A program made the translations under genes and the position numbers. Of a DNA stretch of 64,000 nucleotides, positions 23,366-64,000 are shown one piece after another. Source of the DNA: Sphingobacteriales bacterium JAD_PAG50586_3 (GTDB lineage Bacteria > Bacteroidota > Bacteroidia > CAMBQF01). The stretch is taken from positions 404,923-468,922 of the forward strand of contig CP096135.1 of the NCBI GenBank assembly GCA_023213195.1, written 5' to 3'. Each line of letters begins with the position of its first letter. The first letter of the stretch is position 1. The notes under the pieces were generated by a model. The model saw only the letters and a program-made list of their open reading frames with translations, was not told where the DNA came from and did no database searches.

Positions 23366-26300
23366 TTACTTGCGGCCGGTTTGTTTCCATGGGCTTTGAG
23401 CAGGTTGCGTAGCCTTAGGTACTACTTTTTGCACAGGCGCAGTTGCAGGCTTAGTAGCAGGTGCTGTAGCCGGTTGGGTAGCCGGTGCGGTAGTTGCAGG
23501 CTTGGCAGCACTGCGTGGCTGTGTAGAGTTGGCGTTTTTACTTGCCACTTCTTTAGCCTTTTTAGCAGCTGCTCTGTTTGCATCATCAGCCAAGCTTTCA
23601 GCCTCTAGTTTATCAGCTTTAGCTTTGCGGTTAGCCATTTCAACTTTCTTGTTGTTGGCATTATCTGCAGCGTTGGCTTTTATAGTAGCACCATCGGGCA
23701 CTTTAGGTGCATTAGTTTTAGCATTTTCTATTATTTGGCTAATAGCAGTTTTGCCTGTAGCCGGGGTGGCGCTGCGTGGGCTTATTAAAGCGCTTTGACC
23801 TTTAGATTTTGGTTGACCGTAAACCTGAGGGTACAAATACGTTCCTTTAAGCGGAGCTGGTTTTTCTACTTCAGGCACTACACGGTTTGCATTGGCATAG
23901 GGGTCTTGACGTATGCCTGTAATTTGCCAGCTAACTTTTACGTTGGGCTTATCGGTTTGTATAACAAAGGTATTACCATCTAACTCTTTAGCAACAATGG
24001 CTTGGGCAAAAGTGCCCATAGCGGTAAGCTGGTAGCGGAAATCTTTGTTAAGTGTAGAGAAGTAATCGGGCATGGTAACTGTTGCAAAACCGTTAGCATC
24101 GGTTACAATGTTACCATTGTAAACGTTCATCATATCGGGGCTTTCAACAAAGCTGTGGTATAGGTATTTGTTTTCGGGATCTAGGGGATGGTCTATTTTA
24201 AATGTACCACCACCCTTGGCAAGGTTGCCCAATACATCAACATCGCCATCAAAGTAGCCTGCATAACCAAACACAGAATTTCCTGATCCGGAATACTCTC
24301 CATAAACACCAATAGTAGCCAGCGGCGACCCTGCTGCTTCGTCTGCAACGCCATAAACACCAAAGTTATCAGCATTAGCAACTGGAGAGTAGGCATAGCC
24401 CGCCGAACCAATAGCTGAAGTACCTCCGGAAGATTGATTAAAACTACCGTAAGTATTTATACCTAGCCCTGCAGCATTATCAACAGAGTTTAGAACAGCG
24501 GTTGATCCGCTAGGAAAGTTAGCATTAAATTGAGTAGTTACATTAGCATTAACAACAGTATTGTAGGTTGCTACGGGGCCGTTGGCATTAACAAAAATAC
24601 CGGCAGCATTTAACTCATTAAACCCGGGACCGCTAATCTCGCTATATACACCAATATTAGAGCTAAAATCAAAATCGGTAACTAAGTTGTTGTAAGTACC
24701 ATAAGATGTAGACGAATCGCCAGAGAATATTACATTGTTATCGCCATAAGTAACGTTGTTATTGCCGGCATTTGCAAGAAATATTTTGTTGCTTCCGTAG
24801 GTAACGTTATTACCGCCACCTAAAAATACGGTTGCCTCGTTTACTGCTATGCTATTACCTGATGTAGCAAAAATATTATTTCTATTACCTAATATAGTAC
24901 TGTTGTTATTAGTAAAGTAAACATTATCGGTACCCAATAAAGAGTTATTATCTCCGGTAGTAGACAATGCTGCACGGTTAGCAGTAATTGTGCTATTAAG
25001 CCCACTAAATAAACTAAAGTTATTACCATCTATAGTAGAATTGTCGCCTACAAAAATACTAGCGTCGTTTAGTTGCGCATCTGATGCGATACCGAAATCA
25101 ATAAACGTTGAAAAAGACCTTACAAGAGCACTATCAACAGCTCTAAACTCATTGTCTATACCGTATATTTGGTTGTTAGGGCTGCTATCAAACAACTCTA
25201 TATCGTTGAAGATGCCTTTAAATACAGAATTGTTTCCATCAATATCGTTATAAAAGCCCCAAACTTCAGAACTGTCGCCATTAATATCACCGTCTAAACC
25301 ATAAATTCGGTTTCCGTTATTGATATCAAAATCAAAGCCTTTTTGGCGGTCTTGATTATCACCAACAAACATAGCCAGGTCGAAACCAACAGCTGTTCCA
25401 CTGGCACCTCCGTTAGTAGATAATTCAATGCCTACTAAATCAGAATTATCTCCACCATTAACATTAACACCTATACCGTAGTAGTTATTATCTTTAAAGC
25501 TAGGGTTATCTACCCTTAAACCATAATAACCACCGGTAAACTCACCACCTATACCATAATAATCGCCGGTAAACGAAGTACCTTCAACAGCAATAATATC
25601 ACTGATAGTAGACGAGTCAGGGTCTAGCTGTGGCCCTGTGTAAACAAAAGAACCAATAGTGGGGATGTTACTGTTTAATGTAAAAGTTGTATCTGAAGTA
25701 GCCCTAAATATATAGTCGTTATTTTTATTACGATAGAACACTTCCATTTGCGATGCTGCGGGCTGAGCGTTAGTGCCTATGCCAAAATTGCCATTTACAC
25801 CCACACGGGCAGCTTCTGTGTTATTAGTGCGGAAAACCAAGTCTTCTCCATCTAAGGTACCAATAAAGTTTATAGAGTCGTTAGTGGCGGCATTGCCTGT
25901 GGTTAACCAACCGTTAGATACAGCAGCAACGGTGTCGGGTTGCCATGATGCAAAACCGTTAGCGTCTGATTTTAGAACATAACCAACAGCCTCGTTACCA
26001 TCGGTATAACGGAAAGAGCCGTTAACATCTAGCTTAGCTTGTGGTAGTTGATTGTTAATACCAACAAAGCCACTGTCTGGGGTTATTACCATCTCAAAAT
26101 TTGGATTTTGGTCAACCCCGGCATCAAAAACCAAAGTTTTAGGAACTAAACCAGAGAAACTGGCACGGCCAATAACCGCATCTAAGCCGGTACTATCGTT
26201 TATAAAGAAGAAGGCTGAGTATGAGGTATTAGTATCTGGCCTGTTTTGCAGCACAAATGTGTTTGCAACCCCACCTTGGAAATAACCGGTTGTAGAAAAC

Positions 26301-28903
26301 GCATTGGTATCAACCACACTTAGTTTAGCTAAAAATGGGTTGGTAGTGCCAATGCCAACATTACCGTTAGTAGAGTAGCGGGCAACTTCGTTATTGTTAG
26401 TACGAACAACAAAATCAATAGAGTCTGTAGTACCAATAAAATTAGTAGAAGCATCAGTACCGGCATTGCCTGTAGTTAGCCAAGAACCTGAAACAGTGCC
26501 TGCAGGTTGCCATGTAGCATTACCGTTAGCGTCTGATGTAAGTACATAGCCAGCTGCCTGGGTACCATCTTCTAAACGGAATGTACCATTTAAATGCAAT
26601 GTTGCCGTAGGGTTAGTAGTACCAATACCAACACCATTGCCATTGTCAAATATTTGAGAGTCGCCTAACGTTTGTCCATCAGGGGTAAACTTAGGAATGT
26701 AGTTAAGAGTGCCGTTTATATTAGCCGCACCGGTTGGGCCGGTAACGCCTGTAGCACCTGTTGAGCCTGTTACACCAACTCCAGTAGGACCTGTTGGGCC
26801 TGTTGCACCATCAAGACCGTTTAATCCATTTATACCGTTTGTACCGTTAGCTCCGGTTGGGCCGGTTTCGCCTGTTGCACCTGTAGCACCTGTTGCGCCA
26901 TCAAGACCGTTTATGCCGTTTGTGCCATTAGTGCCTGATGGGCCTGTTACACCAACTCCAGTAGGACCTGTTGGGCCTGTTGCGCCATCAAGGCCGTTTA
27001 TACCGTTTGTGCCGTTAGCACCTGTTGGGCCTACTGGGCCCTGTGCACCTACGCCTACTTTATGTCCGTTAAAATAACCCGAGAAAATAGTTAGGGTACT
27101 TAATGTTGTATTGTTAACCTCTACAGTTACAACATCGCCTGCTGTAAGTTGTACATCGGCCGATAAATCTAATGCCTGAAGAGCACCACCGCTGCTATAA
27201 TTGGTGGTACTTTGGTTTACCGTAACTCCGTTATTTTTCAAATAAGTAATCACTCCACCTACCCCACCGGTAAACGCATCAATTTCTACATCAAAGTGAT
27301 ACAATCCGGTTTCTGTGCAAGTAAATTCGCCTGTGCCATTATTAAATAGTGCGCCTTCTATATAAACAGTTGTTGGGAATAGTATAGTTGTAGTAGAATT
27401 TGAATTTACGGTAGAAATAGCTGCCGTAGCTTTAAAATCGGCGTTACTGCCTGCCGGGCCTGCAGGGCCTGTTGGGCCAGTTACGCCTACACCTGTAGGA
27501 CCGGTTACACCAACACCTGTTGGACCAGTTGCGCCTTGTAAACCAACACCTGTTGGGCCGGTTGGGCCGGTTTCGCCTGTTGCACCATCAACACCGTTTA
27601 TACCGTTAGCGCCTGATGGGCCTGTTGGGCCGGTTTCGCCTGTTGCACCTGTAGCACCTGTAGCGCCATCAAGACCGTTTATGCCGTTTGTGCCATTAGC
27701 GCCTGATGGTCCTGTTACACCAACTCCCGTAGGACCTGTTGGGCCTGTTGCGCCATCAAGGCCGTTTAATCCATTTATACCGTTTGTACCGTTAGCTCCG
27801 GTTGGGCCGGTTTCGCCTGTTGCACCTGTTGGGCCTGTTGCGCCATCAAGGCCGTTTAATCCATTTATACCGTTTGTACCGTTAGCTCCGGTTGGGCCGG
27901 TTTCGCCTGTTGCACCTGTTGGGCCTGTAGCACCATCAAGGCCGTTTGTACCGTTTGTGCCATTAGTGCCTGATGGGCCTGTTACACCAACTCCAGTAGG
28001 ACCTGTTGGGCCTGTTGCGCCATCAAGGCCGTTTAATCCATTTATACCGTTTGTACCATTAGCGCCTGTTGGACCTTGTGGGCCTTGAATACCCTGTAGA
28101 CCGGTTGCTCCGGTAGCACCTGTTGCTCCGTCAAGACCGTTTACACCATTAGCGCCCGTTGGGCCTTGTGGGCCTTGAATACCCTGTAGACCGGTTGCTC
28201 CGGTAGCACCTGTTACTCCGTTTATTCCGTTTGTGCCATTAGCTCCGGTTGGGCCTTGTAAGCCTTGTGGGCCTTGTGCACCTGTTGCGCCTGTAGCACC
28301 GTTCAATCCATTTGTACCGTTAGCTCCGGTTGGGCCTTGTAAGCCTTGAGGGCCTGTTAAACCCTGAACTCCTTGCGGGCCTGTTGGACCCTGGGTGCCT
28401 TGGGGACCTTGAATTCCCTGCGCACCTGTTGGGCCGGTTAAGCCGTTAGTACCGTTTGTTCCGGCAGGGCCGGTTATACCTTGTGGACCTGTTGGGCCTG
28501 CCGGGCTATTATTAGCATACAGCGCGTAGGGTACACTTATTAGTTCTGATACGCCAGCTACCGTATAGGTAGTGCCGCCCGTAGGGTCAATCTCGGTTCG
28601 GATGTATTTGCTGCCGCTGCCCCAGGCTATAGAAGCAAAATTGCCGCTTGTTACCGTACCATCGCCCACCTTTAGGTTGAATAAACCAAAGGGGTTGGTG
28701 GTTAAACTGTGGGTTTCCTGATACACAATGGTACCTCCGGGAGAGCCATCAACTATACTTAACCGAACGCCAATGGGTTGGTTAGGCAGTTCTGCTCCCG
28801 ATGGGTTACGGGCAATTGCCTGGTAATTAAATTTTTGCGGGGCTTGTGCGTTTGCGCTCAAAGCAAAGAACACAATACTGAATATCAGTATTAGTTTTTT
28901 CAT
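23366..28903 (-). CDS. 1845-aa collagen-like fibre protein (fibre 4)
   Basis: Signal peptide; NYQAIARN...SVPYALYA N-domain; two Gly-X-Y tracts around a C1q-like domain; GIGTTNP tail-fibre-like repeats; [14 protein letters not shown]-domain; Lys/Ala/Pro tail; no T9SS CTD. Confidence 0.85.
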
Positions 28904-48326: not shown

Positions 48327-48367
48327 AGGCTGTATAAAAAATAAACTGTATAAAAATATTGTATTCT

Positions 48368-48757
48368 TCAATTATATCCAAACATTATCCTATTATATTC
48401 ATCGGGCACGGTTGGCGGGTTTTTCTTATATTCTTCTAATGTTACGTTGCCCGGATAAAATTTTGGCAGCGGGCCGTATTTTTTTGTGTATTGTTTTGTA
48501 TTGTATAACAGGTACCAGTGCTGCGTGCGGCGCTGGTAGGTAAGGCTGTCGGCCTGCGGGTTGCCGCTGTCTAAAAACAGGGGTTGGCGGTCGGTAACCG
48601 GGTAAGCGAAAAATTTTTCCAGAGCAAATACGTTAAAGGTATAGGCAGATGAGGCAGTTACAGCGGTTTGCTTTGGTGTTTTGCATGCAACGCCCATAGC
48701 CAGCAAGCCAAAAAAGGCCGCAAACAAGTAAAAGTTGACTAATCCCGAAAATCGCAT
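48368..48757 (-). CDS. Hypothetical lipoprotein
   Basis: Lipobox GVAC. Confidence 0.55.
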   Translation of the reverse strand: MRFSGLVNFYLFAAFFGLLAMGVACKTPKQTAVTASSAYTFNVFALEKFFAYPVTDRQPLFLDSGNPQADSLTYQRRTQHWYLLYNTKQYTKKYGPLPKFYPGNVTLEEYKKNPPTVPDEYNRIMFGYN

Positions 48758-53259: not shown

Positions 53260-53733
53260 TTATTTCCCTTCTGACTTCTCAATCCTAAAGCCTACATCAG
53301 TAATATTAGGCAAAGGGTCTACGCGCATGGCATGCTCCAACCTGAATTTGTATTTGCCCTTTTGGTTAAAATACACGTTGCGTTTAAGCATTATGCGGTT
53401 GTCTAACAAATCGCCGGCGCCTTTGCCCATCCACTTACCGTTTTTATCGGCCAGCAGGCAGTTAAGGGTGTCTTTAGCCTCTTTACCGTTGGGGAAAGTG
53501 GTGGTTAAAAACAGGAATATGTTAGAGAACTGGTAATCGGCAGTGTTGCGCAGGTTAATGTAGGCATTAACCGCTTGGTTGGTATCGGCTATTTCCACCT
53601 CAAACTCTACCGGTTGGTTAGAGTTCCACTTGCTGCCCTCTATCTTTTTGTTTTCATCAAAAAGGCGGCTATCATCGCACGCGGCAAAAAGCAAAAGGGC
53701 TGTAGCAGCCAATACACCTATTAACCTTTTCAT
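53260..53733 (-). CDS. gldH: Gliding motility lipoprotein GldH
   Basis: Lipobox FAAC, LRNTADYQFSNIFL, DTLNCLLAD..GKWMGKG, EHAMR, DVGFRIE. Confidence 0.92.
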   Translation of the reverse strand: MKRLIGVLAATALLLFAACDDSRLFDENKKIEGSKWNSNQPVEFEVEIADTNQAVNAYINLRNTADYQFSNIFLFLTTTFPNGKEAKDTLNCLLADKNGKWMGKGAGDLLDNRIMLKRNVYFNQKGKYKFRLEHAMRVDPLPNITDVGFRIEKSEGK

Positions 53734-53736
53734 TTA

Positions 53737-55172
53737 TTATTCTTGGGGTGGCGCAGGTGGGTTTTGCGGCGGTTTTGGCCCACGGTTGCGGTTGTTGTTA
53801 TTACGTGGCGGGCGGTTGTTATTGTCGCGCGGCGGACGGTTACTGTTGTCTCTTGGCGGGCGGTTGCTATCATCCCTAGGTGGGCGGTTGCTGTTATCGC
53901 GTGGGGGCGGTTGTTATTATCCCTTGGCCCACGGTTTTGGTTGTTGCCTCCCTGGTTTTTGTTTTCCGGCTTAATTTCAGGCCCTTTATCGCCACCATCG
54001 GTATTTTGTACCGGGTTTGGTCCCGCAACACGGTTTTTGTTGCCGGGCTTGCGCTTATTGTTGTTCGATTTTTTCTTAGTCCTGTCAAAGCGGGTAAGGC
54101 TGTCCTGCCCCACTACGTTTTCATAATCAGGCTCTTTTTTAGCCGGTAGTTTAGTTACTATCGCGGCTAACTCATCGGGCTTAATGCCTTGGGCGTTCAT
54201 AGCCTGTAGCTCTTTTACCCTATCAACAGAAAGTGGGATAAACAAGCCCATGTTGTCTTTATAGGCATACCACATGGTGCGGCGGAAAATGTCCGTTTTC
54301 ATGTGTACTGCCAGTCCCTTTTGGGTTTCAATAGGCTTATCATTCTCGGGAAATTCCTTTATCGCATCAAGGTAGCTATCCAACTCGTAGTTAAGGCAGC
54401 ATTTAAGTTTGCCGCACTGGCCGGCCAGTTTAAGCGGGTTTAGCGCCAATTGCTGGTAACGTGCCGCGCTGGTATTAACGGTACGGAAATCTCGCAACCA
54501 GGTAGAGCAGCAAAGCTCACGCCCACAAGAGCCAATGCCACCCAAACGGGCAGCCTCCTGGCGTTGGCCTATCTGGCGCATTTCTATACGTACGCGGAAT
54601 TCTTCGGCCAGCTTTTTAATAAGCTCGCGGAAGTCTACCCTATCGGGCGCGGTGTAAAAGAAGGTGGCTTTAGAGCCATCGCCCTGAAATTCTACATCGC
54701 TAAGCTTCATATCCAACCCAATGCCCGATGCTATTACGCGGGCTTTGTACATGGTATCAACCTCGCGTGCAATGGTAGCCTGCCATTTATCAATATCGGC
54801 AGTTTTGGCCTTGCGGTAAAGTGATTTTACTTCGGCTGAATCGTAAGGGATATTCAGCTTCTTCATTTGGGTTTTAACCAATTCGCCCGAAAGCGAAACG
54901 GCTCCTATATCGTGGCCCGGGTTACCTTCTACGGCTACTATATCGCCTTGAAAAAGGTCCTGACCTGAGTTATTGCGGTAAAATTCTTTGCGGCTGTTTT
55001 TAAAACGTACTTCAACTATATCAAATTGTTTTTGACCATTTGGCAACTCCATGTTTGCCAGCCAGTCGAATATATTGAGTTTGTTACAACCACCTATACC
55101 GCATGCTCCATTGCTTTTACACCCTGCGGGGGTTCCATTGCCCCTGCCTGTGCTACATCCGCTGCATGCCAT
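53737..55172 (-). CDS. PSP1-domain (RicT/YaaT-like) Fe-S protein with NRPPRD-repeat tail; frameshift near 53905
   Basis: N-terminal Cys cluster, RVDFRELIK, GGIGSCGRELCCSTW, KLAGQCGKLKCCL; corrected stop at 53737. Confidence 0.88.
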
Positions 55173-55270: not shown

Positions 55271-55297
55271 AAAGGCTACCTGAAATCAGATAGCCTT
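55271..55297. terminator. Intrinsic terminator closing the fibre island
   Basis: AAGGCTA/TAGCCTT stem. Confidence 0.6.
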
Positions 55298-55313: not shown

Positions 55314-55580
55314 CTAATTAGTCTTTTTTGCGCCCGCAGCCTTGTTTTTTCGCTTTGAAGCAGGGGCTAATGGAGGATTAGTTGCCGGCGTTGCTTTGTC
55401 TGCCTGTTTATTGGCCGCACCCGGCTTGTACGCAGCCATTTGGGGCTTATTAGTCCCCACAACCGGCTGGGCTTTTGTATTGCCTAATTTGCCTGTAGCC
55501 ATTGCGGGTGCGTTGCTTTGTGCATTTGCTGCTATGCAGCCTAACAGCACAATAGTATATGTTAAAACTATCTTCTTCAT
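55314..55580 (-). CDS. Small secreted Lys/Ala/Pro-rich low-complexity protein
   Basis: Signal peptide ...AANA-Q; starts 9 nt after the fibre 3 stop. Confidence 0.7.
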   Translation of the reverse strand: MKKIVLTYTIVLLGCIAANAQSNAPAMATGKLGNTKAQPVVGTNKPQMAAYKPGAANKQADKATPATNPPLAPASKRKNKAAGAKKTN

Positions 55581-55589
55581 ACCTACAGA

Positions 55590-56770
55590 TTATTGTACAA
55601 ATGCGCTTATGGTGCCGTGGTGGCCGGTTTCGGTAGCTGTGTATATACCTATGCCGGGTGTGCCAGATATAGCTGCTACGCGGTACTGCACCGTAACGGT
55701 GTTAGCTACGTTAGCATTTACTGTTACCTTTTTTGTAAATGCCGCGCTCCAGGGGCTTGTACCATCGCCTGTAAAGGAGTCTAATATAGAAACCTTCTCG
55801 CTTGTGCCACCGGCTGAAACACCGTTTACCAACACCCTAAATTCTACAAAAGACATACCATCGGCATACCCAAAACCAGCAGCGGTAAAGTTTAAGAAGG
55901 CTGTAGTTTGTGTGGGTGTAAACGTAATGCTTAGGCCCGGCACGTTGGTATAGGCCGCGGCAACAAGGGTTTGGTCGCCGGTAACAGATGATGATACAAT
56001 ATTTACACCGCCTGTGCCCGGAGCGCCTGTAGCACCTGTTGCACCGGGGGTTCCGTTAGCGCCAGTAGCGCCATTAGCACCCGAAGGGCCTGCAGGGCCC
56101 GTATTGCCATTTAAGCCCGCAGGACCTGTTGGCCCAGCTGAGCCTGTAGAGCCTGTTGCACCCGTAGCACCAGCTACGCCATTGTTACCTGTAGGGCCGG
56201 TAGGGCCTGTTGCTCCACCGCCGGGTCCTGTTGGGCCGGTTGGACCGGTTGCACCACCACCCGGGCCTGTTGGGCCGGGGGCACCATTAGCACCTGCGGG
56301 GCCTGTAGCACCGGGAGCGCCCGCTGGGCCTGCAGGACCTGTTGGGCCGGGGTTTGTAGAGCTGCCTGAGTATAGCGCATACGGTACAGACCATAATTGC
56401 ATAGTACCCATATCTATATACCCCGTACCGGGGTTAGCTTCAATTTTTGCAAAATGGTTAGAGCTGCCCCAGGGGATAGCGCTTAGCGTGTTAAACGGAC
56501 CGGTAACAAATGTACCTGGCCTATAACCATATCAAACAACCCAAATTGGTTAGTGGTTACGGTATGTGTTTCTTGAAACTGCGGTGTGCCGTTTATTGCG
56601 ATTAGAATAGATACACGGATGGTTAGCGTATTGTTAGATAGTATGCTACCCGAGTTGTCGCGGGCAACGGCCTGGTAATTAATACCCGGAGGTGGTGCCA
56701 CTTGGGCAAATGCCACATTGCACAACAATAGGCCAGCAGCAATAACAAGTTGTTTAACTAGTTTTTTCAT
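55590..56770 (-). CDS. Collagen-like fibre protein 3 with BclA/C1q-like tip, frameshift near 56515
   Basis: ATG 56770 signal peptide; NYQAVARD...SVPYALYS N-domain; GPT/GAT collagen; [10 protein letters not shown] tip. Confidence 0.85.
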
Positions 56771-56842
56771 GGTTTTTTTAAATATGATTGCCGTAAATGT
56801 AGGATTAACGGGGCATAGAAACAATATTGGTGTAATAAAAAT

Positions 56843-56877
56843 AAAAAGCCCCCTGACTTTTATGGTCAAGGGGCTTT
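56843..56877. terminator. Intrinsic terminator after fibre 2
   Basis: AAAGCCCC(C)TGAC/GTCAAGGGGCTTT. Confidence 0.7.
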
Positions 56878-56898
56878 AAGATTATAATATGCTAAACC

Positions 56899-59713
56899 TT
56901 ATGGCTTAACTATAAGAATGTTAATTCGTAAGTTTTGTGTTACAGAGTTAGTCTCGTCTAGGAATATCTCAAACGATGTTGTGGTAAGATTCCTGATAAT
57001 AGGCGATTCAAAATCATTATCATCGTCAGCATTGCCTAAGCTGGTAAACGATAGCATTGGAATATACGTTGTAGTGCCTTGGTCGGCAAAGTTAACGGTA
57101 ATGGTAGACCTGCCGCTATTGTTAGTTTTTGTTGCTGATGTAATGCCACCTGCTACGGTAACAGCAGTACCTGCATTAATATCAGAAATAAGAACAGTAC
57201 CTGCAACAGTTTGAATAGCAGGGCCTGTTGGGCCTTGGGCACCTTGTGGACCTGCTACACCCTGAATGCCTTGAGCACCTTGTGGGCCTACTGCACCATC
57301 GTTACCTGTTGGGCCAATTGGACCTTGAGCACCGGCAGGGCCGGCAACACCTTGTGGGCCTTGGGCACCGGCAGGGCCTTGCGGACCAACTGCACCATCG
57401 TTACCGGTTGGGCCTTGCAAACCTTGTATGCCTTGTATACCCTGTATACCTTGTGGGCCTTGAGCGCCTTGTGAGCCTTGAGCACCAGAAAGGTTGCTAA
57501 CTACTATGCGTGAGCCCGGAAATGCGGTTTGGAAATTAATATCTACAGGATTAGAAACATCGTTGTGCCAAACATATATTTCAAAATACTCGCCGTTTTG
57601 TAATACTATATTAAAGTTAACGCTACTTGCGGGCACATCAGTATCTGGGCCGTCAAAACTTAAAATACCATAACGGTCGGTAAAAACGTTACCATTTTTT
57701 GCACCAAAGGCATAGCGGCCTGTTCCGGGAGTAGGCAATGCGCTCCAGGTTATAAATGATGATACATTTAAAACCAACACATCGCCACTGGTATTGATAA
57801 ATTTAGAAGCTCCATCGTATGTTAATCCGCTTACTCCGTTAGAGTTAGCAGCATCCAAATTCTCCCAAAAAACAGGGGTATCAATGCCATCTGCAATACC
57901 TTGTGGGGTAACATTAGCGTAAGCTAAAGTAGCAGCTGTACCAACGGGGGCTGCAGGGCCTGTAGGACCTGTAACACCAACACCTGTTGGGCCTGTTGGG
58001 CCAGTAACACCATCGGCACCATTAGCACCGTTGCTTCCTGTTGGGCCGGTTGGGCCTGTTGCGCCATCGGCACCGTTAGCGCCGTTAGCACCATTATTTC
58101 CTGTAACACCTGTTGGGCCTGTTACACCATTAGCACCATCGTTACCTGTTGGACCTGTAGGGCCGGTTACTGATGGTAAAGGTTGCCATGTAGCAACACC
58201 CTGGTTGTTAGACGATGTTAATACATAACCCGTTTGTGCACCTTGTGGAAGAACTACATTGTTACCAAAGAAAACATTATCGCGGGTAAAGAAACCCCAG
58301 TAGCGTTGTTGCGCATCGCTATAAGCCATAAAAGCCAAAGTAGGGCCACTGTCGCCATTGTTTAAACGGCCAACAACACCTGCACTGTTAGCAAAATCGC
58401 CATAGTTGCCACCGTAAACACCGGCGCTGTAGTTGTTGCCATACCAAGAGTAACCTTTAATAGCAGCATCAACACCACGTACAGCCCAGCTAGAGCCACC
58501 ATCAGTTTCGTTAAAAGAACCCTGGCGGTAAGCAAATATATTTGAGTGACCATCACCAAAATCAGTACCCGGACGCTCAACATAAACGCGTGTTTTGTCA
58601 GCACCACGTACTACTGCAGGTTGATCTGGGTTTACTACGTTTACTTTTACAACGCCTTCTACCATTAAACCATTTACAGGTGCGGCAGAGTTAGCAAAGT
58701 TTTGACCAATAGAAACATTACCACCAACGCTAAGTTTACTTGCAGGGGTAACGTTGCCAATGCCAACATTAGCGCCGTTGTTGTAGATATTGCTGCTGGT
58801 TGTTACCCATGCAGAACCATTCCAATAAGGAGTATCACCAGCTGAGTCGCCATCTTGTAATAAACCTGTTGGGCCTGTTACACCTGTTGCTCCATCAGCA
58901 CCGGCAGGGCCTTGTGGGCCTACTGCACCATCGTTACCAGTTGCACCTTGTGGGCCAGCTGGGCCTTGGGCACCGGCAGGGCCTTGTGGACCTACCGCAC
59001 CGTCGTTACCTGTTACACCTTGTGGACCAGCAGGGCCTTGAGCGCCGGCAGGGCCTTGTGGGCCTACCGCACCGTCGTTACCTGTTGCACCTTGTGGGCC
59101 TTGTGGACCAGGGTCGCCTTGCGCACCGGTAGCACCATTAGCACCGGCAGGGCCTTGCGGACCTACGCTACCTGTTACACCTTGTGTGCCTTGTGGGCCT
59201 TGAATACCTTGTGGACCTGTTGGGCCTACCGCACCATTGGCACCGTTAGCACCGTTTATACCTGTTGGGCCTTGCGGACCTGTTGGGCCTTGGCTACCGC
59301 CACCAGAGTTACCAGCATAAATAGCGTAAGGAACGCTGATTAACTGGCTTGTACCTGCTACTGTGTATGCGTTACCGCCGGTAGGGTCAATCTCTGTTTT
59401 AATGTATTTTGCACCGCTACCCCAGCCAATGTTGGTAAAGGTGCCTGTTACTACAGAACCTGTACCAACTTCAAGGTTAAATAAACCGTAGTTGTTGGTG
59501 GTTTTGGTGTGGGTTTCCTGATACACTACTGTGCCACCGGGAGAAGCATCTAAAATGCTGATACGGATGCCAATTGCCTTAGCCCGTTATCTCTGCTCCA
59601 CCAGCATTGCGTGCAATGGCCTGGTAGTTAAATTTTTGTGGCGCCTGCGCGTTCACAACAAAAGCAAATAGCATAAGCAACACTATTGCTTTTAATGATT
59701 TGGAGATGTTCAT
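56899..59713 (-). CDS. Collagen-like fibre protein 2, frameshift near 59580
   Basis: Manual start [36 protein letters not shown] at 59713; three collagen tracts; NVGIG tail-fibre-like segment; C1q-like middle domain; small beta-rich tip. Confidence 0.85.
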
Positions 59714-59732
59714 ATTCTCGATTAGATAAGTA

Positions 59733-60260
59733 TTACTTAATTACTTCAAAACGTTTTACTACGCTGAAGGATTTGGTGTGATCTACCGCTTCAAATACAA
59801 TGTTTAGCATGTATAAGCCTTGGCTTATGCCATCTAGGTTTATCGTTTCAGTTTGTTGACCTAGCTGGCTGCCTTTTGTAAAGCCCGCTAACTCACGACC
59901 TGCCATATCAAACATACGGAACGACAATTTACCCGCATTGGTAAGGTCGAATGCAATGTTTACCTTATTGGTAGCAGGGTTAGGGAACAAATTAATTTGG
60001 GGTGCGTTGGCCGGTAGGCTGATAATGCCTACGGTTTTAAATTCAGGTTGCTCAAAACCCTGGGTAATAAGCACGTTACCGCCGCTAATGGTTTCTACCA
60101 CAGGCTCGCCTGCAATATTTACCGATAGTGAGCCCCAAGAGCCTGAATAGAATTCGCCGGCATTAGAAATTGCCTGATGATCTATGTTTACCTGTGCTTT
60201 TACGCTTACAACACAAAGTAATAAAGCAAAAAGCAAACTTGTTGTGTATAATTTATTCAT
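59733..60260 (-). CDS. Minimal T9SS substrate (candidate fibre adaptor), copy B
   Basis: Signal peptide + ~55-aa [13 protein letters not shown]...QGFEQP peptide + LFPNP...ISQGLY CTD. Confidence 0.85.
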   Translation of the reverse strand: MNKLYTTSLLFALLLCVVSVKAQVNIDHQAISNAGEFYSGSWGSLSVNIAGEPVVETISGGNVLITQGFEQPEFKTVGIISLPANAPQINLFPNPATNKVNIAFDLTNAGKLSFRMFDMAGRELAGFTKGSQLGQQTETINLDGISQGLYMLNIVFEAVDHTKSFSVVKRFEVIK

Positions 60261-60277
60261 GGACTAAAGATATTGTA

Positions 60278-60285
60278 CAAAAGTA
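60278..60285 (-). promoter_or_regulatory. -7 promoter element of the copy B unit
   Basis: Minus strand TACTTTTG about 18 nt upstream of ATG 60260. Confidence 0.55.
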
Positions 60286-60372
60286 ACTTAACTGCTATTA
60301 ACTAAACTTTAATACTGTAACAGACTTATTAACAGTTTAATATTATAAACTGAAAGCTTTTACTTTAAAATA

Positions 60373-60399
60373 AAGAAGGCCGCACAAGGCGGCCTTCTT
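60373..60399. terminator. Intrinsic terminator between the two adaptor-fibre units
   Basis: AAGAAGGCCGC-ACAAG-GCGGCCTTCTT perfect 11-bp stem. Confidence 0.8.
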
Positions 60400-60417
60400 A
60401 TCTCTTACAATAAAATA

Positions 60418-60702
60418 CTATTTCTCTTCTTTACGAATGATAGTAGCTGTTGGCAACAAGGCCTTAATTTCAGCTTCAAGCTTAGCAATAGTTGCTTTAT
60501 CATCAACTGTTGGAGTAACTATATAAGCTTTATATTCTTTAGATGTACCTGTTACTTTACCATTTTGAATGGAATTTAACCGGGCACCATCAGTAGCCGA
60601 AGTTACTTTTACAAGGATGGTGTTGCCTGCTGTTTGACCAAAAGCGTTTACGCTTACAAACATTGCAAACAGGGCTATAATTTTAACTATGTTCTTTTTC
60701 AT
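60418..60702 (-). CDS. Small secreted protein of unknown function
   Basis: Signal peptide MKKNIVKIIALFAMFVSVNAFG-Q; starts 11 nt after the fibre 1 stop. Confidence 0.7.
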   Translation of the reverse strand: MKKNIVKIIALFAMFVSVNAFGQTAGNTILVKVTSATDGARLNSIQNGKVTGTSKEYKAYIVTPTVDDKATIAKLEAEIKALLPTATIIRKEEK

Positions 60703-60713
60703 ATTATTTTTAA

Positions 60714-62813
60714 TTACCATGAAATAATTACTAAACCATTACCAGTGTTGTAACCACCGGTGTAAGTAATGCCAGATGAACCTGATGGGGTTACATAGCT
60801 GCTACCGCCGCCGCCGCCGGCATAAGCACCTGCGCCGCCACCGTAGTAGCCGCCACCGCCGCCACCGCCGCTGTTGCCAAAGTTAGATTGTAAGCCGTTA
60901 GCATTACCACCTTGGCCAAATGAACCAGATTCGCTTTCAAAGCCAGGGTATGTAGAACCAGAACCTGGGCCAGACTGTGTAGCACCACCACCATTAAATT
61001 CAATAATGCCAGTACATTCAACACCATCAAGACCTGCAGGGTAGCCACCGTTACCGCCATCGCTACCGGTACCGTCAAAGCAGTTAAAGCCTGCACCGCC
61101 ACCACCACCGGCAACAACAAGACGGTCGTTTAGTGTGTTTCCGGCAGTTCTGATATCAGAAGCGCCGCCGCCGCCGCCGCCTTGAAGGAAATTGGAACCA
61201 TTATTAAAGGTTTCAGCATCGCCACCACCATTGTAGCCCGGAGTTAATGGTGCACCTTTGCCACCAACGTAAACGTTTAATATTTGGCCCGGTGTTACAG
61301 TTAAAGTAGCTTGAGTACGGCCACCAGCACCCGGGATGTTTGTATTAGGGTCTCCACCTGCATTGCCACCACCTGCAGCAATAACATCAACAACAATAGA
61401 TGTTATACCCGCCGGTACAGTAAATGTTTGAGGGGCACCGGTAAAGTTAAATGTTTGTGAACCCGGAGGGGTTGTAGTAACAATTAGGGTACCGCAGGTT
61501 GAATACCAATCGCCACCAAAATAGTAGTTAGGGCAACCTGTAGTTATGTTGAAAATATATAATCCATCAGCAGGAGATGCTATAGCATCGCGTTGAGCAT
61601 CTGTTAAACGTGGCATTAAGAAACCGCGGGTAGTAGATGTAACATCTAAAGCAGCAGAAGCAGCAGGAACAGCAGCACCTACTGAAAGTTGGTTATTGGT
61701 TTTGTCGTAAGTAAACTCACCATCAGCACCGGCAGCGCCGTTATCGTTAAAAATAACCTGCTTATCAGTACCCGCTACAGGGCCTGTAGCACCGGTTGCA
61801 CCCGGAGCACCTGGAGCACCTGGAGTTCCCGGAGCACCCGCAGGGCCAACAGGACCTTCTGCACCGGCAGGACCAACAGGACCTTGAGCACCGGCAGGAC
61901 CGGCAGGACCTTGAGCACCGGCAGGGCCAACTGGACCTTCTGCACCGGCAGGGCCAACAGGGCCTTGAGCACCGGCAGGACCGGCAGGACCTTGAGCACC
62001 GGCAGGGCCAATAGGACCTTCTGCACCGGCAGGGCCAACAGGGCCTTGAGCACCGGCAGGACCAGCAGGACCTTCTGCACCGGCAGGACCTTGAGCACCG
62101 GCAGGGCCTTGTGCACCATCAGCGCCATTAGCACCGGCAGGGCCGGCAGGGCCTTGAAGACCTTGAGGGCCTTGAGCGCCATCAGCGCCATTGGCACCGG
62201 CAGGACCTTGAGCACCATCGGCACCGGCAGGACCGGCAGGGCCTTGAGCACCATCGGCACCGGCAGGGCCTTGCGGGCCTACGCTACCTGTTACACCTTG
62301 TGGGCCTTGAATACCTTGAGGACCTGTTGGACCTACTGCGCCGTTAGCACCGTTAGCACCGTTTAAACCTGTTGGGCCTTGCGGACCTGTTGGGCCTTGG
62401 CTACCAGAGTTACCAGCGTAAAGAGCATAAGGCACGCTTATTAACTGGCTAGTGCCAGCTACAGAGTATGTGCTACCGCCTGTTGGGTCAATTTCTGTTT
62501 TAATGTATTTACCACCTGTGCCCCAGTCTATAGAAGAAAAAGTGCCTGAAACAACAGAACCTGCGCCAACTTCAAGGTTAAATAACCCGTAGTTGTTGGT
62601 AGTTTTGGTGTGGGTTTCATAGTACACTACTGTGCCACCCGGAGAGCCATCTAAAATGCTGATACGGATACCAATTGCCTGGCCCGTAAGCTCTGCTCCA
62701 CCAGCATTGCGTGCAATGGCCTGGTAGTTAAATTTTTGTGGCGCCTGCGCGTTCACAACAAAAGCAAGCAGCATAAATAATGCCAGTGCTTTTAAGGTTT
62801 TTGTGATGTTCAT
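60714..62813 (-). CDS. Collagen-like fibre protein 1 with Gly-rich tip
   Basis: Signal peptide; shared N-domain; GPA/GAQ collagen with 81-bp unit x3 (61841-62083); TTRGFLMPR segment; TFTVPAG...AAGGG...GNGLVIISW Gly-rich domain. Confidence 0.88.
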
Positions 62814-62836
62814 TTGTTGATAGTAGTGATTGGTGA

Positions 62837-63355
62837 TTACTTAATTACTTCAAAACGTTTTACCACACTGAAAGATTTGGTAGGATCTGCCGCTTCAAAT
62901 ACAATGTTTAGCATGTATAAGCCCTGGCTTATGCCATCTAGGTTTATCGTTTCAGTTTGTTGGCCCAGCTGGCTGCCTTTTGTAAAGCCTGCTAACTCGC
63001 GACCTGCCATATCAAACATACGGAACGACAATTTACCCGCATTGGTAAGGTCGAATGCAATGTTTACCTTATTGGTAGCAGGGTTAGGGAACAAATTAAT
63101 TTGGGGTGCGTTAGCCGGTAGGCTAATAATGCCTACGGTTTTAAATTCAGGTTGCTCAAAACCCTGGGTAATAAGCACGTTACCGCCGCTAATGGTTTCT
63201 AATACAGGCTCGCCTGCAATATTTACCGATAGTGAGCCCCAAGAGCCTGAATAGAATTCGCCGGCATTAGAAATTGCCTGATGATCTATGTTTACCTGTG
63301 CATCGGCAACAAGAAAACCTGCAACAGACAGGAGTAATAGGAATATTTTTTTCAT
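62837..63355 (-). CDS. Minimal T9SS substrate (candidate fibre adaptor), copy A
   Basis: Mature region nearly identical to copy B, different signal peptide (ATG 63355). Confidence 0.85.
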
Positions 63356-63534: not shown

Positions 63535-64000
63535 TTATGCCTTTAAAAGCTCGGTCATTGATAAGGATAAATCGAAGAAAAGCACCTTGGAATTAGCGTT
63601 GCGCTCTACATGCTCGCAGGCGCGGTTTAGCTCGGCAATAATGCGTGGCCCGTTGGTGTTGCCAATAAACCTGCCAAACTGGGTAACAAAGGTTAGTTCC
63701 TCGCCGGTAAGCTTAACGTTATTAGGGCCCAAGTGGTTAAAAATTACACACTCGCGTATTACACCTAAGCCATAAATTAAAAACGATTTTTGCGACTCGC
63801 GGCCTTCTTTAGAAAAGCTCTCAACCCAATTGTACAAGTCTTGTATTTTATTGCCGTAGCAATCCCTCATCCACTGGCGAAAAACAGGGAAGTTAGAATC
63901 AACCTCCTGGTTTAGCAGGCGTTGTGCTTCGCGGTAGCTGCCCCCGGCTAAAAATGCTATGCTTTTCGCCTGACTGGCGGGTACGTTATGCAAAAACTCC
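63535..64000 (-). CDS. holB: DNA polymerase III delta-prime subunit, C-terminal part (runs off the window)
   Basis: AFLAGGS...A, GRESQKSFL.Y, ELNRACEHVERNANSKVLFFDLS typical of the Bacteroidota HolB C-terminus. Confidence 0.8.
   Translation of the reverse strand, partial: EFLHNVPASQAKSIAFLAGGSYREAQRLLNQEVDSNFPVFRQWMRDCYGNKIQDLYNWVESFSKEGRESQKSFLIYGLGVIRECVIFNHLGPNNVKLTGEELTFVTQFGRFIGNTNGPRIIAELNRACEHVERNANSKVLFFDLSLSMTELLKA

What the first reader, a model, noticed from the sequence alone, without database searches (positions are those of the whole stretch)
55314..63355. Candidate two-partner surface-fibre system: minimal T9SS adaptor plus CTD-less collagen fibres with a shared base domain and swappable tips
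Seen: three units, [A 63355-62837, fibre 1, small secreted protein], [A' 60260-59733, fibre 2] and [fibre 3, small secreted protein], each closed by a terminator. All fibres, and fibre 4 at 23.4-28.9 kb, start with a Sec signal peptide and the same ~110-aa domain (NYQA(I/V)AR...ETH..TTN..GLF...W......EI/EA...SVPYA(L/I)Y), then Gly-X-Y tracts, then unrelated tips (Gly-rich domain, small beta-rich domain, BclA/C1q-like domain). None ends in a T9SS CTD. A and A' are only a signal peptide, a ~55-aa peptide ending QGFEQP, and a type A CTD. Established: collagen and C1q domains trimerise; T9SS cleaves the CTD of type A substrates and can attach them to the cell surface. Inference: the ~55-aa peptide is too small to be an enzyme and probably binds the conserved fibre base to export or anchor it, giving a mix-and-match adhesin display analogous to Bdellovibrio mosaic adhesive trimers or phage tail fibres. 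I do not know of a characterised example.
Basis: partly seen in the sequence, partly recalled or inferred. Interest (0 to 1): 0.85.

Follow-up and report, generated by a model that had tools for sequence, protein, structure and literature searches.

The report
Small T9SS protein paired with MAT-type fibres
A tiny secreted protein carrying a type IX secretion tag sits directly upstream of long surface-fibre genes here and in many other Bacteroidota genomes. This makes it a testable candidate for the unknown part that exports or anchors these mix-and-match adhesin fibres.

Summary
A (62837-63355) and A' (59733-60260) consist of a signal peptide, a 60-65-aa peptide and a type A T9SS CTD. Four fibres share a ~110-aa base domain and have different stalks and tips.

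The base domain is homologous to the N-domain of Bdellovibrio MAT fibres: NCBIfam Bdello_MAT_N matches 83/83 relatives, all below its cut-off. Caulton 2024 already lists Bacteroidota MATs, so the fibres are a known kind.

The partner appears undescribed. A belongs to a large family (423 clusters at E<=1e-10, nearly all ~165 aa) with a near-invariant SLSWTIGE...LTQGFQQP peptide.
- In 54 of 79 A genes from species-representative genomes, a base-domain gene starts within 400 bp downstream (median about 26 bp).
- In 33 of 68 base-domain genes from metagenomes, an A gene ends within 400 bp upstream.
- None of 121 fibre ORFs has a type A CTD.

The association follows the base domain, not collagen.

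AlphaFold2 folds the CTD and the base domain confidently, but not the A peptide.

The frameshifts in fibres 2 and 3 are absent from short-read contigs.

Verdict: a real, conserved gene pair; the adaptor mechanism is plausible but unproven.

The parts
62837..63355 (-). A: small T9SS type A cargo of 172 aa. Signal peptide 63299-63355, conserved peptide 63101-63298 (residues 20-85, ...[14 protein letters not shown]...LITQGFEQP), CTD 62840-63100.
   Evidence: PF18962 47 bits, TIGR04183 36 bits; large family of about 165-aa proteins. AF2 gives pLDDT >90 for the CTD and 47-74 for the peptide.
60714..62813 (-). Fibre 1 (699 aa). Signal peptide, then MAT_N-like base domain (62415-62747), collagen stalk (61776-62414), then a tip with an ALK/LTK-type Gly-rich domain. 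Starts 23 nt after the stop of A.
   Evidence: PF01391, PF12810; NF053851; AF2 of the base domain: pLDDT 91, pTM 0.80.
60418..60720 (-). Small secreted ORF (100 aa) at the end of unit 1. It is not part of the conserved module.
   Evidence: no family match; no relatives in 160 related loci.
60373..60399 (-). Terminator-like hairpin closing unit 1.
   Evidence: 11 pairs, 7 of them G-C, followed by a T run.
59733..60260 (-). A': paralogue of A (175 aa). Signal peptide 60195-60260, peptide 59997-60194, CTD 59736-59996.
   Evidence: 96.8% DNA identity to A over the mature part, with 11 synonymous and 3 non-synonymous codon differences; the signal peptide and upstream DNA are unrelated.
56899..59713 (-). 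Fibre 2. Base domain, three collagen tracts, two globular inserts and a small C-terminal domain. The frame is broken near 59581 in the window but intact in short-read contigs.
   Evidence: contigs from X1, X3 and X4 lack one base at 59581 and read TGQAIGI, as in fibre 1.
56845..56877 (-). Terminator-like hairpin closing unit 2.
   Evidence: 13 pairs.
55590..56770 (-). Fibre 3. Divergent base domain, short collagen stalk, and a 136-aa tip with no known family. The frame is broken near 56514 in the window but intact in short-read contigs. No A gene lies upstream.
   Evidence: one extra base at 56514 in X1-X3; the tip has no PDB relative by sequence.
55314..55580 (-). Small secreted, low-complexity ORF (88 aa) at the end of unit 3. 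Not conserved elsewhere.
55272..55297 (-). Terminator-like hairpin closing unit 3.
23366..28903 (-). Fibre 4 (1845 aa). Same base domain (68% identical to that of fibre 1), collagen tracts, an internal C1q domain and a long tail. No A gene lies upstream; the neighbour is a cytochrome P450.
   Evidence: (PF00386 40.8 bits).

Best explanation
The region holds a conserved two-gene module.

The fibres are Bacteroidota members of the mosaic adhesive trimer (MAT) kind. After a Sec signal peptide comes a constant ~110-aa beta-sandwich base domain, then a trimeric stalk (collagen here) and interchangeable tips. There is no T9SS signal.

A and A' are minimal type A T9SS cargo. Their only passenger is a 55-65-aa peptide that is highly conserved and does not fold on its own.

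Most likely mechanism (inferred):
1. In the periplasm the A peptide docks onto the fibre base domain.
2. The CTD of A takes the complex through the T9SS translocon.
3. After CTD removal, A tethers the fibre base to the cell surface.
4. One A type can serve several fibres, whether encoded in cis or in trans, because their base domains are alike.

Shown: the domain identities, the homology of the base domain to MAT_N, the conserved adjacency, the absence of a type A CTD on the fibres, and purifying selection on A.

Inferred: the binding, piggyback export and anchoring.
For: Conserved pairing
- From the A side: 54 of 79 A-family genes in GTDB species-representative genomes have a base-domain gene starting within 400 bp of their stop, on the same strand, median gap about 26 bp.
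- From the fibre side: 33 of 68 base-domain genes in metagenome contigs have an A ORF ending within 400 bp upstream.
- An independent example is locus L001, with 1-2 bp gaps between the two genes.
- Only these two gene families recur across the 160 loci.
- The link follows the base domain, not the stalk: 43 A-adjacent fibres have a collagen stalk and 44 have another type.

Properties of A
- A is a true type A CTD protein.
- It belongs to a family of 423 clusters at E<=1e-10, nearly all 150-175 aa.
- The peptide is better conserved than the CTD: G32, G48, E49, T54 and the T63-P69 motif are each the majority residue in 71-100% of members.
- AF2 with 112 sequences leaves the peptide at pLDDT 47-74, while the CTD is above 90. 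This is typical of a segment that folds on a partner.
- A and A' differ by 11 synonymous and 3 non-synonymous codons.

Properties of the fibres
- 0 of 121 fibre ORFs have a type A CTD, using an HMM that finds one in 121 of 135 A ORFs and in 67 other ORFs.
- The base domain folds alone (pLDDT 91), but its most conserved motif, SVPYALYA, is poorly placed (pLDDT 76 falling to 52).
- The base domain matches Bdello_MAT_N in 83/83 relatives (best E 6e-15), and in 12/12 without the signal peptide.
- Caulton 2024 (PMC10769870) states that the MAT N-domain 'would presumably tightly bind a surface element' that is still unidentified.

Host context: the host has T9SS/gliding genes nearby, namely GldH at 53260-53733 and another CTD cargo at 44889-48371.
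Against:
- The mirror-tree test gives r(A peptide, base domain) = 0.44, lower than r(CTD, base domain) = 0.65. The partial correlation is 0.09, so there is no co-evolution beyond shared history.
- About half of the fibres (35 of 68) and about a quarter to a third of the A genes (25 of 79; 21 with no base-domain gene anywhere downstream in the locus) lack an adjacent partner. Fibres 3 and 4 in the window are examples.
- The A peptide also heads other proteins: P0230 (455 aa, Ig-like repeats plus CTD), and a 300-aa family without a CTD and without a fibre downstream. It may therefore bind something other than fibres.
- No natural A-fibre fusion was found in 160 loci.
- Bdellovibrio, which has homologous base domains, is not known to have a T9SS (from my own knowledge). 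The ancestral role of the base domain therefore cannot depend on A.
Confidence: 0.45

Rival explanations
1. The A peptide is a general N-terminal surface module. It binds a third component, such as a cell-surface glycan, an outer-membrane protein or part of the T9SS attachment complex, and not the fibre. A and the fibres are co-transcribed because they act together at the surface, for example as a spacer or coat beside the fibres, but they do not touch.
For: - The same peptide heads unrelated proteins, with and without a CTD, that have no fibre next to them.
- 21-25 of 79 A genes have no fibre downstream; several are followed by a transporter instead.
- There is no excess co-evolution with the base domain.
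- Both the peptide motif and the SVPYALYA motif are near-invariant across the phylum. That would also fit binding to a conserved third party.
Against: - The adjacency is very tight and frequent: 68% from the A side, median gap about 26 bp, and sometimes 1-2 bp.
- A and the fibre are the only two recurrent families in the loci.
- The link tracks the base domain across different stalk types.
Confidence: 0.25
2. A is a periplasmic assembly factor. Its peptide transiently caps the base domain while the trimer and stalk fold, like a phage tail-fibre chaperone, and is then removed from the periplasm through the T9SS. It is not part of the finished fibre and does not carry the fibre out.
For: - The peptide is unfolded on its own.
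- A lies upstream in the same operon-like unit.
- Trimeric fibres commonly need dedicated chaperones (established for phage fibres; S74 domains in MATs).
Against: - A chaperone has no obvious need for a secretion tag.
- Half of the fibres have no A in cis.
- Fibre export would still be unexplained, since the fibres have no type A CTD.
Confidence: 0.15
3. The adjacency has no functional meaning. A is an unrelated small T9SS-secreted peptide, or a decaying gene fragment, that travels with the fibre genes.
For: - Within the window the two A-fibre pairs are paralogous and not independent.
- The contigs come mostly from MAGs.
Against: - The pairing recurs in several orders of Bacteroidota in two independent collections.
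- A shows purifying selection, 11 synonymous against 3 non-synonymous changes.
- The family has a strongly conserved motif and a constant size.
Confidence: 0.05

Closest known systems
Bdellovibrio bacteriovorus mosaic adhesive trimer (MAT) fibres (Caulton et al. 2024, PMC10769870; NCBIfam NF053851 Bdello_MAT_N)
   Same: - A signal peptide is followed at once by a constant beta-rich base domain of about 110-130 aa, then a long fibre and swappable tips, with several paralogues per genome.
- The base domains are homologous: 83/83 relatives match the model.
- The authors' Supplementary Table S3 already lists MATs from the FCB group, including a 'collagen-like' one from Saprospiraceae.
- Neither base domain has a structural relative in the PDB.
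   Different: - Scores are below the model's cut-off (32-37 bits for the window's proteins against 60), and only the first half of the profile aligns (positions 2-80 of 162).
- The stalk here is collagen, not beta-helix.
- No S74 domain was detected.
- No partner gene is described for MATs, whereas here a small T9SS cargo gene is conserved directly upstream.
T9SS type A cargo proteins (CTD PF18962/TIGR04183; removed by PorU, and in P. gingivalis the cargo is then linked to A-LPS)
   Same: A and A' have a signal peptide and a bona fide type A CTD above both curated cut-offs, modelled as a confident beta-sandwich.
   Different: - The passenger is only about 60 aa, has no enzyme or adhesin domain, and does not fold alone.
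- Carrying or anchoring a second, CTD-less protein has not been described for the T9SS, to my knowledge or in the papers searched.
T9SS type B CTD cargo with a dedicated PorP/SprF-like partner (for example SprB/SprF)
   Same: A T9SS-related surface adhesin or fibre is encoded next to a small dedicated partner gene.
   Different: Here the fibre has no CTD of either type. The partner is a soluble type A cargo, not an outer-membrane PorP/SprF barrel, and it lies upstream.
Bacterial collagen-like surface proteins (Scl1/Scl2, Lcl, BclA)
   Same: Gly-X-Y stalks with a globular head. The NCBIfam models for SclB, Lcl and SclA match on the collagen part.
   Different: - All scores are far below the cut-offs.
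- Anchoring differs: there is no LPXTG and no BclA N-terminal exosporium motif.
- Collagen is only one of several stalk types behind this base domain.
Phage tail fibres with downstream assembly chaperones or adaptor proteins
   Same: Constant N-terminal attachment domain, trimeric shaft, swappable receptor-binding tip, and a small accessory gene alongside.
   Different: - The context is cellular and chromosomal.
- The accessory gene is upstream and carries a secretion tag.
- Fold searches gave only weak beta-sandwich matches to phage proteins (TM <0.5).

Membership tests
T9SS type A CTD cargo (for A and A') | C-terminal domain matching PF18962 / TIGR04183 above the curated cut-offs | tested here: met
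   PF18962 scores 47.1 and 47.2 bits (cut-off 27). TIGR04183 scores 36.1 and 37.4 bits (cut-off 23).
T9SS type A CTD cargo (for A and A') | N-terminal Sec signal peptide and an Ig-like beta-sandwich fold of the CTD | tested here: met
   The sequence shows a hydrophobic leader ending A|Q. AF2 gives pLDDT 88-97 for residues 80-172, all beta. The fold search returns beta-sandwiches, including the PorU CTD in 6za2.
T9SS type A CTD cargo (for A and A') | Secretion dependent on the T9SS, and CTD cleavage by PorU | not testable with these tools
   This needs secretome or mutant data. Only indirect support exists: GldH and another CTD cargo lie in the same window.
MAT chimeric fibre family (for fibres 1-4) | Conserved beta-rich N-domain immediately after the signal peptide, matching NF053851 at its cut-off (60 bits) | tested here: not met
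   The window's proteins score 23-37 bits. The match is consistent, in 83/83 relatives (best E 6e-15) and in 12/12 without the signal peptide. This means homologous at superfamily level, but outside the Bdellovibrio subfamily model.
MAT chimeric fibre family (for fibres 1-4) | Architecture: constant base, long fibre, unrelated interchangeable tips, several paralogues | tested here: met
   There are four paralogues with 68-83% identical bases (among fibres 1, 2 and 4) and otherwise unrelated sequence. In other loci the same base precedes collagen or other stalks. MATs from the FCB group are listed by the family's authors.
MAT chimeric fibre family (for fibres 1-4) | Trimeric assembly and exposure on the cell surface | not testable with these tools
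   Trimerisation is inferred from the collagen Gly-X-Y tracts (PF01391) and the C1q domain. No multimer model or experiment is available.
Bacterial collagen-like proteins (PF01391) | Uninterrupted Gly-X-Y tracts matching the Pfam Collagen model above its cut-off | tested here: met
   Scores are 46-187 bits (cut-off 27.2) in all four fibres. Tracts are mapped.
Type B CTD cargo with PorP/SprF partner | Type B CTD on the adhesin and a PorP/SprF-family outer-membrane partner gene next to it | tested here: not met
   No type B CTD family was reported for any fibre in the NCBIfam scan. The only recurrent neighbour is the A family.
Classical two-partner secretion (TpsA/TpsB) | Omp85-type TpsB transporter with POTRA domains and a TPS domain on the exoprotein | tested here: not met
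   No such Pfam or NCBIfam hits appear on any protein of the cluster. 'Two-partner' in the title is descriptive only.

The most novel reading that the evidence does not exclude
The A family is the missing 'surface element' for MAT-type fibres in Bacteroidota. Its short peptide clamps the fibre base domain, and its CTD lets a CTD-less, pre-assembled trimeric fibre ride through the T9SS and then holds it on the cell surface. This would be the first adaptor-mediated (piggyback) cargo route and anchoring mode described for the T9SS. It would also imply a modular docking system, because other proteins carrying the same peptide could be displayed on the same base.
Probability: 0.35. Interest if true: 0.85.

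Novelty: new variant of a known kind. Interest (0 to 1): 0.68.

Why it matters
MAT fibres were described in 2024 as the prey-recognition adhesins of Bdellovibrio. How their constant base domain is exported and held on the cell is explicitly unknown.

This window, together with 160 related loci, shows that the same base domain is widespread in Bacteroidota. There it is linked to a small, uniform, uncharacterised family of T9SS cargo.

That gives a concrete, cheap hypothesis for the anchor or export partner. It also points to a possible new way of using the T9SS, namely cargo without a CTD carried by an adaptor. The result would bear on surface display, adhesion, predation and biofilm biology in a major phylum.

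Even if direct binding fails, two things stand. A family of several hundred clusters that is currently annotated only as 'T9SS type A sorting domain-containing protein' gains a functional context, and its conserved N-terminal peptide module is defined.

Tried and rejected
No contact prediction was obtained.
2. A mirror-tree / partial Mantel test on 72 pairs showed no excess co-evolution of peptide and base domain beyond that seen for the CTD. This is uninformative rather than negative, because both interfaces are nearly invariant.
3. A search for natural A-fibre fusions in 160 loci found none.
4. Fold searches gave only generic beta-sandwich hits, with TM <0.5: the A model against the PDB, and the base-domain model against the PDB and BFVD.
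5. Profile and sequence searches against PDB sequences gave nothing useful. The base domain and the tips had no hits. The A peptide gave only chance-level resemblance (E 0.06-1) to the first strands of antibody light chains.
6. RNA runs to test co-transcription: none were available.
7. Neighbourhood look-ups in the closest genome (Sphingobacteriales bacterium JAD_PAG50586_3; P0001, P0004) returned 'not on record'.
8. The word-index protein search with the A peptide alone found only one relative. The full HMMER scan was needed to see the family.
9. The idea that the small secreted ORFs belong to the system was rejected, as they have no relatives in related loci.
10. The idea that fibres 2 and 3 are pseudogenes was rejected as the general state, because short-read contigs are in frame.
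11. A first alignment of 55 peptides was too diverse for the genome scan. The scan was rerun with 14 sequences sharing ILTQGFQQ. This biases the sample towards that motif variant.

Full report
**Anatomy of the region**

All relevant genes lie on the - strand.
- Unit 1: A (62837-63355, 172 aa), fibre 1 (60714-62813, 699 aa, starting 23 nt after the stop of A), a 100-aa secreted ORF (60418-60720), and a terminator-like hairpin (60399-60373).
- Unit 2: A' (59733-60260, 175 aa), fibre 2 (ATG at 59713, stop at 56899), and a hairpin (56877-56845).
- Unit 3: fibre 3 (ATG at 56770, stop at 55590), an 88-aa secreted ORF (55314-55580), and a hairpin (55297-55272).
- Fibre 4 (23366-28903, 1845 aa) stands alone about 26 kb away (its start at 28903 is 26.7 kb from the end of the cluster at 55590), downstream of a cytochrome P450 gene.

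**Two broken reading frames**

In the window as given, fibre 2 has an in-frame TAA after '...AEITG', and the frame continues in another phase. Fibre 3 is split in the same way.

Short-read metagenome contigs from wastewater and plastisphere samples carry this locus at 95-99% identity. They lack one base at 59581, with T>G at 59580, which restores 'TGQAIGI' as in fibre 1. They also have one extra base at 56514.

At a 97% identity cut-off, the contigs that cover 59581 carry fibre 2-specific bases at six sites where fibre 1 differs. They are therefore not cross-mapped from the paralogue.

Two further single-base indels, at 55323 and 63413, point the same way. The breaks are assembly errors or strain variants.

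**What A is**

A and A' match the type A T9SS sorting domain above both curated cut-offs: PF18962 at 47 bits against 27, and TIGR04183 at 36-37 bits against 23. Between the signal peptide (cleavage at A|Q) and the CTD lie 65-66 residues, with no match in Pfam or NCBIfam.

A word-index search with this peptide found only one relative, a truncated ORF in Sphingobacteriales bacterium JAD_PAG50586_3. A full HMMER scan of 1.84 billion cluster representatives found 7312 proteins at E<=0.001 and 423 at E<=1e-10. Nearly all of the best 150 are 150-175 aa and align end to end.

The family consensus is: signal peptide, then AQ-s.l.P.VI.S.G, about 8 variable residues, SLSWTIGEpvvET, about 6 variable residues, ILTQGFQQP, about 18 variable residues, then the VYPNP start of the CTD. 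G32, G48, E49, T54 and the T63-P69 motif are each the majority residue in 71-100% of members (P69 74%, position 67 71%, the rest 93-100%). This is better conservation than in most of the CTD.

A and A' differ at 14 codons in the mature part, 11 of them synonymous. Their signal peptides and upstream DNA are unrelated. Both copies are under purifying selection, but the two A-fibre adjacencies in the window are paralogous and count as one observation.

**What the fibres are**

All four have Pfam Collagen tracts. Fibre 1 ends in an ALK/LTK-type glycine-rich domain (PF12810, 71 bits). Fibre 4 contains an internal C1q domain (PF00386, 40.8 bits). The tips of fibres 2 and 3 have no family and no PDB relative by sequence. 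'BclA/C1q-like' for fibre 3 is therefore unsupported.

Outside the base domain the fibres are unrelated, except for one weak fibre 2/fibre 4 match. No fibre has a type A or type B CTD.

The shared N-terminal domain gave the most informative hit. NCBIfam NF053851, 'Bdello_MAT_N, mosaic adhesive trimer family chimeric fiber protein', matches at 23-37 bits, below its 60-bit cut-off. I collected 86 relatives of the domain and aligned 81 of them with two of the window's own domains (83 sequences in all). Every one of the 83 matches this model at E<=0.01, with a best E of 6e-15. Twelve of twelve still match after the signal peptide is removed, with a best E of 2e-11 on profile positions 11-80.

The base domain is therefore a distant homologue of the Bdellovibrio MAT N-domain. 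Caulton et al. 2024 describe that domain as a conserved beta-rich region of about 130 aa right after the signal peptide. [quoted passage not shown]

Their Supplementary Table S3 already lists MAT proteins from the FCB group, including a 'collagen-like' one from a Saprospiraceae bacterium.

AlphaFold2 folds the base domain alone with high confidence: pLDDT 91, pTM 0.80, an all-beta fold over residues 27-125. It has no convincing structural relative in the PDB (best E 1.8e-3, TM 0.35) or among viral models.

**Is the A-fibre pairing more than a local accident?**

A look-up of one fibre relative (P0021) returned a 259-kb metagenome contig. There, two 154-aa CTD proteins each end 1-2 bp before a base-domain fibre gene. 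Their peptides read '...FTIDFTIGEPVTETVSNGTNDLTQGFHQ', clearly the A family.

I then scanned one genome per GTDB species with the peptide pattern ILTQGFQQ. The best 80 loci were kept, from Bacteroidales, Chitinophagales, Flavobacteriales, Sphingobacteriia, Saprospiraceae and MAGs labelled Chlorobiota.

I used HMMs built from the two alignments. Of the 79 A genes with at least 500 bp of downstream sequence, 54 have a base-domain gene starting within 400 bp of their stop on the same strand. The median gap is about 26 bp. Four more have one within about 800 bp.

For the reverse test I scanned metagenome contigs with base-domain patterns (578 of 599 hits confirmed, 80 loci kept). This gave 33 of 68 base-domain genes with an A ORF ending within 400 bp upstream.

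A random gene would be followed by a fibre gene well under 1% of the time, so the pairing is strongly non-random. An all-against-all clustering of the ORFs in the 160 loci found only two recurrent families, the fibres and the CTD/A proteins. A Reg_prop-type sensor kinase comes a distant third, in 11 loci. The window's small secreted ORFs have no relatives there.

Two further results sharpen the picture.
- None of 121 C-terminally complete fibre ORFs has a type A CTD. The HMM used detects a CTD in 121 of 135 A ORFs and in 67 other ORFs. Some of these ORFs may be truncated by assembly problems in repeats.
- The stalk after the base domain is collagen in only about half of the cases. A-adjacency is equally common for collagen stalks (43) and other stalks (44).

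The conserved unit is 'A plus MAT-type base domain'. Collagen is incidental.

**Evidence on mechanism**

AlphaFold2 with 112 family members models the CTD of A at pLDDT 88-97. The peptide stays at 47-74 and the QGFEQP-linker segment below 50, with only tentative hairpins.

A very conserved segment that does not fold alone is what one expects of a region that folds on a partner. The most conserved motif of the base domain, SVPYALYA, is likewise poorly placed in the monomer model (pLDDT 76 falling to 52). These two observations fit a peptide-base contact, but they do not show it.

The direct test was a co-fold of a linker fusion with 58 paired rows.

A mirror-tree test on 72 pairs gave r = 0.44 for peptide against base domain, lower than r = 0.65 for CTD against base domain. 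The partial correlation was 0.09. There is thus no co-evolution beyond common descent, although the test has little power when both surfaces are nearly invariant.

Several observations count against a strict one-to-one adaptor.
- Half of the fibres and a quarter to a third of the A genes have no adjacent partner.
- No natural fusion exists in the loci.
- The A peptide also heads other proteins. P0230 has 455 aa with Ig-like repeats and a CTD. A 300-aa family found in five genomes has no CTD and no fibre downstream.

**Best explanation and rivals**

My best reading (confidence about 0.45) is as follows. The A peptide docks on the fibre base domain. The CTD then takes the assembled, CTD-less fibre through the T9SS and/or tethers it to the surface after CTD processing. 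A copies can serve fibres encoded elsewhere, because base domains within a genome are alike (68-83% among fibres 1, 2 and 4 here).

The T9SS is established to move folded type A cargo, to remove the CTD, and in some species to link the cargo to surface lipopolysaccharide. That is background knowledge and was not tested here. GldH (53260-53733) and another CTD cargo (44889-48371) in the window show that the host has the machinery.

Rivals:
- The peptide is a general surface module that binds a third component (0.25).
- A is a transient periplasmic assembly factor (0.15).
- The adjacency has no functional meaning (0.05). This last rival is disfavoured by conservation across orders and by purifying selection.

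**Comparison with what is known, and novelty**

The fibres fit the MAT architecture and are homologous in the base domain, but they fall below the NCBIfam subfamily cut-off. I file them as Bacteroidota relatives of MATs, which the MAT authors had already noted.

A is a regular member of the type A CTD cargo class. It is unusual in having a passenger of only about 60 aa.

Searches of the literature found no description of this pair or of adaptor-mediated T9SS cargo. The terms used were T9SS with hitchhiking, piggyback, collagen-like and collagen triple helix. Sources name the family only 'T9SS type A sorting domain-containing protein' or 'hypothetical protein'.

The system differs from type B CTD cargo with PorP/SprF partners, and from classical two-partner secretion; the defining parts of both are absent.

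I rate it a new variant of a known kind: a known fibre family plus an undescribed, conserved partner. The partner could answer the open question of what holds or exports the MAT base.

**Limits**
- Most loci come from MAGs.
- The genome scan used one motif variant and kept the 80 best hits.
- Adjacency was scored with my own HMMs on stop-to-stop ORFs.
- Whole-genome co-occurrence, expression and any physical interaction remain untested.

Noticed in passing
window 55323, 56514, 59580-59581, 63413: Short-read metagenome contigs of the same locus differ from the window by single-base indels at these four places. Two of them break fibres 2 and 3. This suggests that the window comes from an assembly with residual indel errors, or from a variant strain.
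   Followed up: yes
L043:5929-6837, L055:349-1260, L064:5935-6837, L070:5920-6831, L074:5902-6831; protein P0230: The A-type peptide (SLSWTLGE...ILTQGFQQP) also sits at the N-terminus of other proteins. One is a 300-aa family with a Ca-binding-like GDxNxDGD motif, no CTD and no fibre downstream. The other is a 455-aa protein with Ig-like repeats and a CTD. The peptide is therefore a portable module.
   Followed up: partly
window 53260-55172 and 63535-63993: The fibre cluster lies between RicT (53730-55172) followed by GldH (53260-53733) on one side, and a partial ORF with no family hit on the other (63535-63993). From memory this ORF looks like the C-terminus of DNA polymerase III delta'. The cluster may be an insertion into a housekeeping block; this was not tested.
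   Followed up: no
window 53730-54150: RicT has a long, low-complexity, basic C-terminal extension rich in N, R and T. Several long ORFs overlap it in other frames; these are probably artefacts of the repetitive composition.
   Followed up: no
window 44889-48371: This is another large type A T9SS cargo (1160 aa; TIGR04183 51.5 bits). Its passenger was not identified.
   Followed up: no
L001:9648-13458 and 10 other loci (for example L068:1029-5063): A Reg_prop/HisKA sensor kinase lies near the A-fibre pair in 11 of 160 loci. In L001 it is accompanied by a LytTR response regulator. It is a possible regulator of fibre expression.
   Followed up: no
window 63299-63355 versus 60195-60260: The similarity between A and A' starts almost exactly at the signal-peptide cleavage site. 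The mature parts are 96.8% identical in DNA, whereas the leaders, the upstream DNA and the 20-23-nt spacer before the fibre gene are unrelated. This suggests recombination or gene conversion limited to the mature coding part.
   Followed up: partly
window 60740-61293: Short-read contigs pile up here at about 20-fold higher word depth (70-135 against 3-7), with many loose ends. This is the Gly-rich tip of fibre 1. It is probably cross-mapping of similar G+C-rich glycine-repeat sequences from other organisms.
   Followed up: no
window 23366-24600 (C-terminal part of fibre 4): Fibre 4 ends in a long region with no Pfam family. It contains the motif [30 protein letters not shown] and an Ala/Lys/Pro-rich tail. 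The repeated 'GYVL(T/K)SDANG.A(T/S)WQP' motif is shared with fibre 2 (weak BLASTP match, E 7.5e-4).
   Followed up: partly
A-family peptide profile (alignment A3): The only PDB sequence matches to the peptide profile are at chance level (E 0.06-1). They are to the first two strands of antibody kappa light chains ('SLSVSVGETVTITC' against 'SLSWTIGEPVIET'). This is a hint, and no more, that the peptide forms edge strands of an Ig-like sheet.
   Followed up: no
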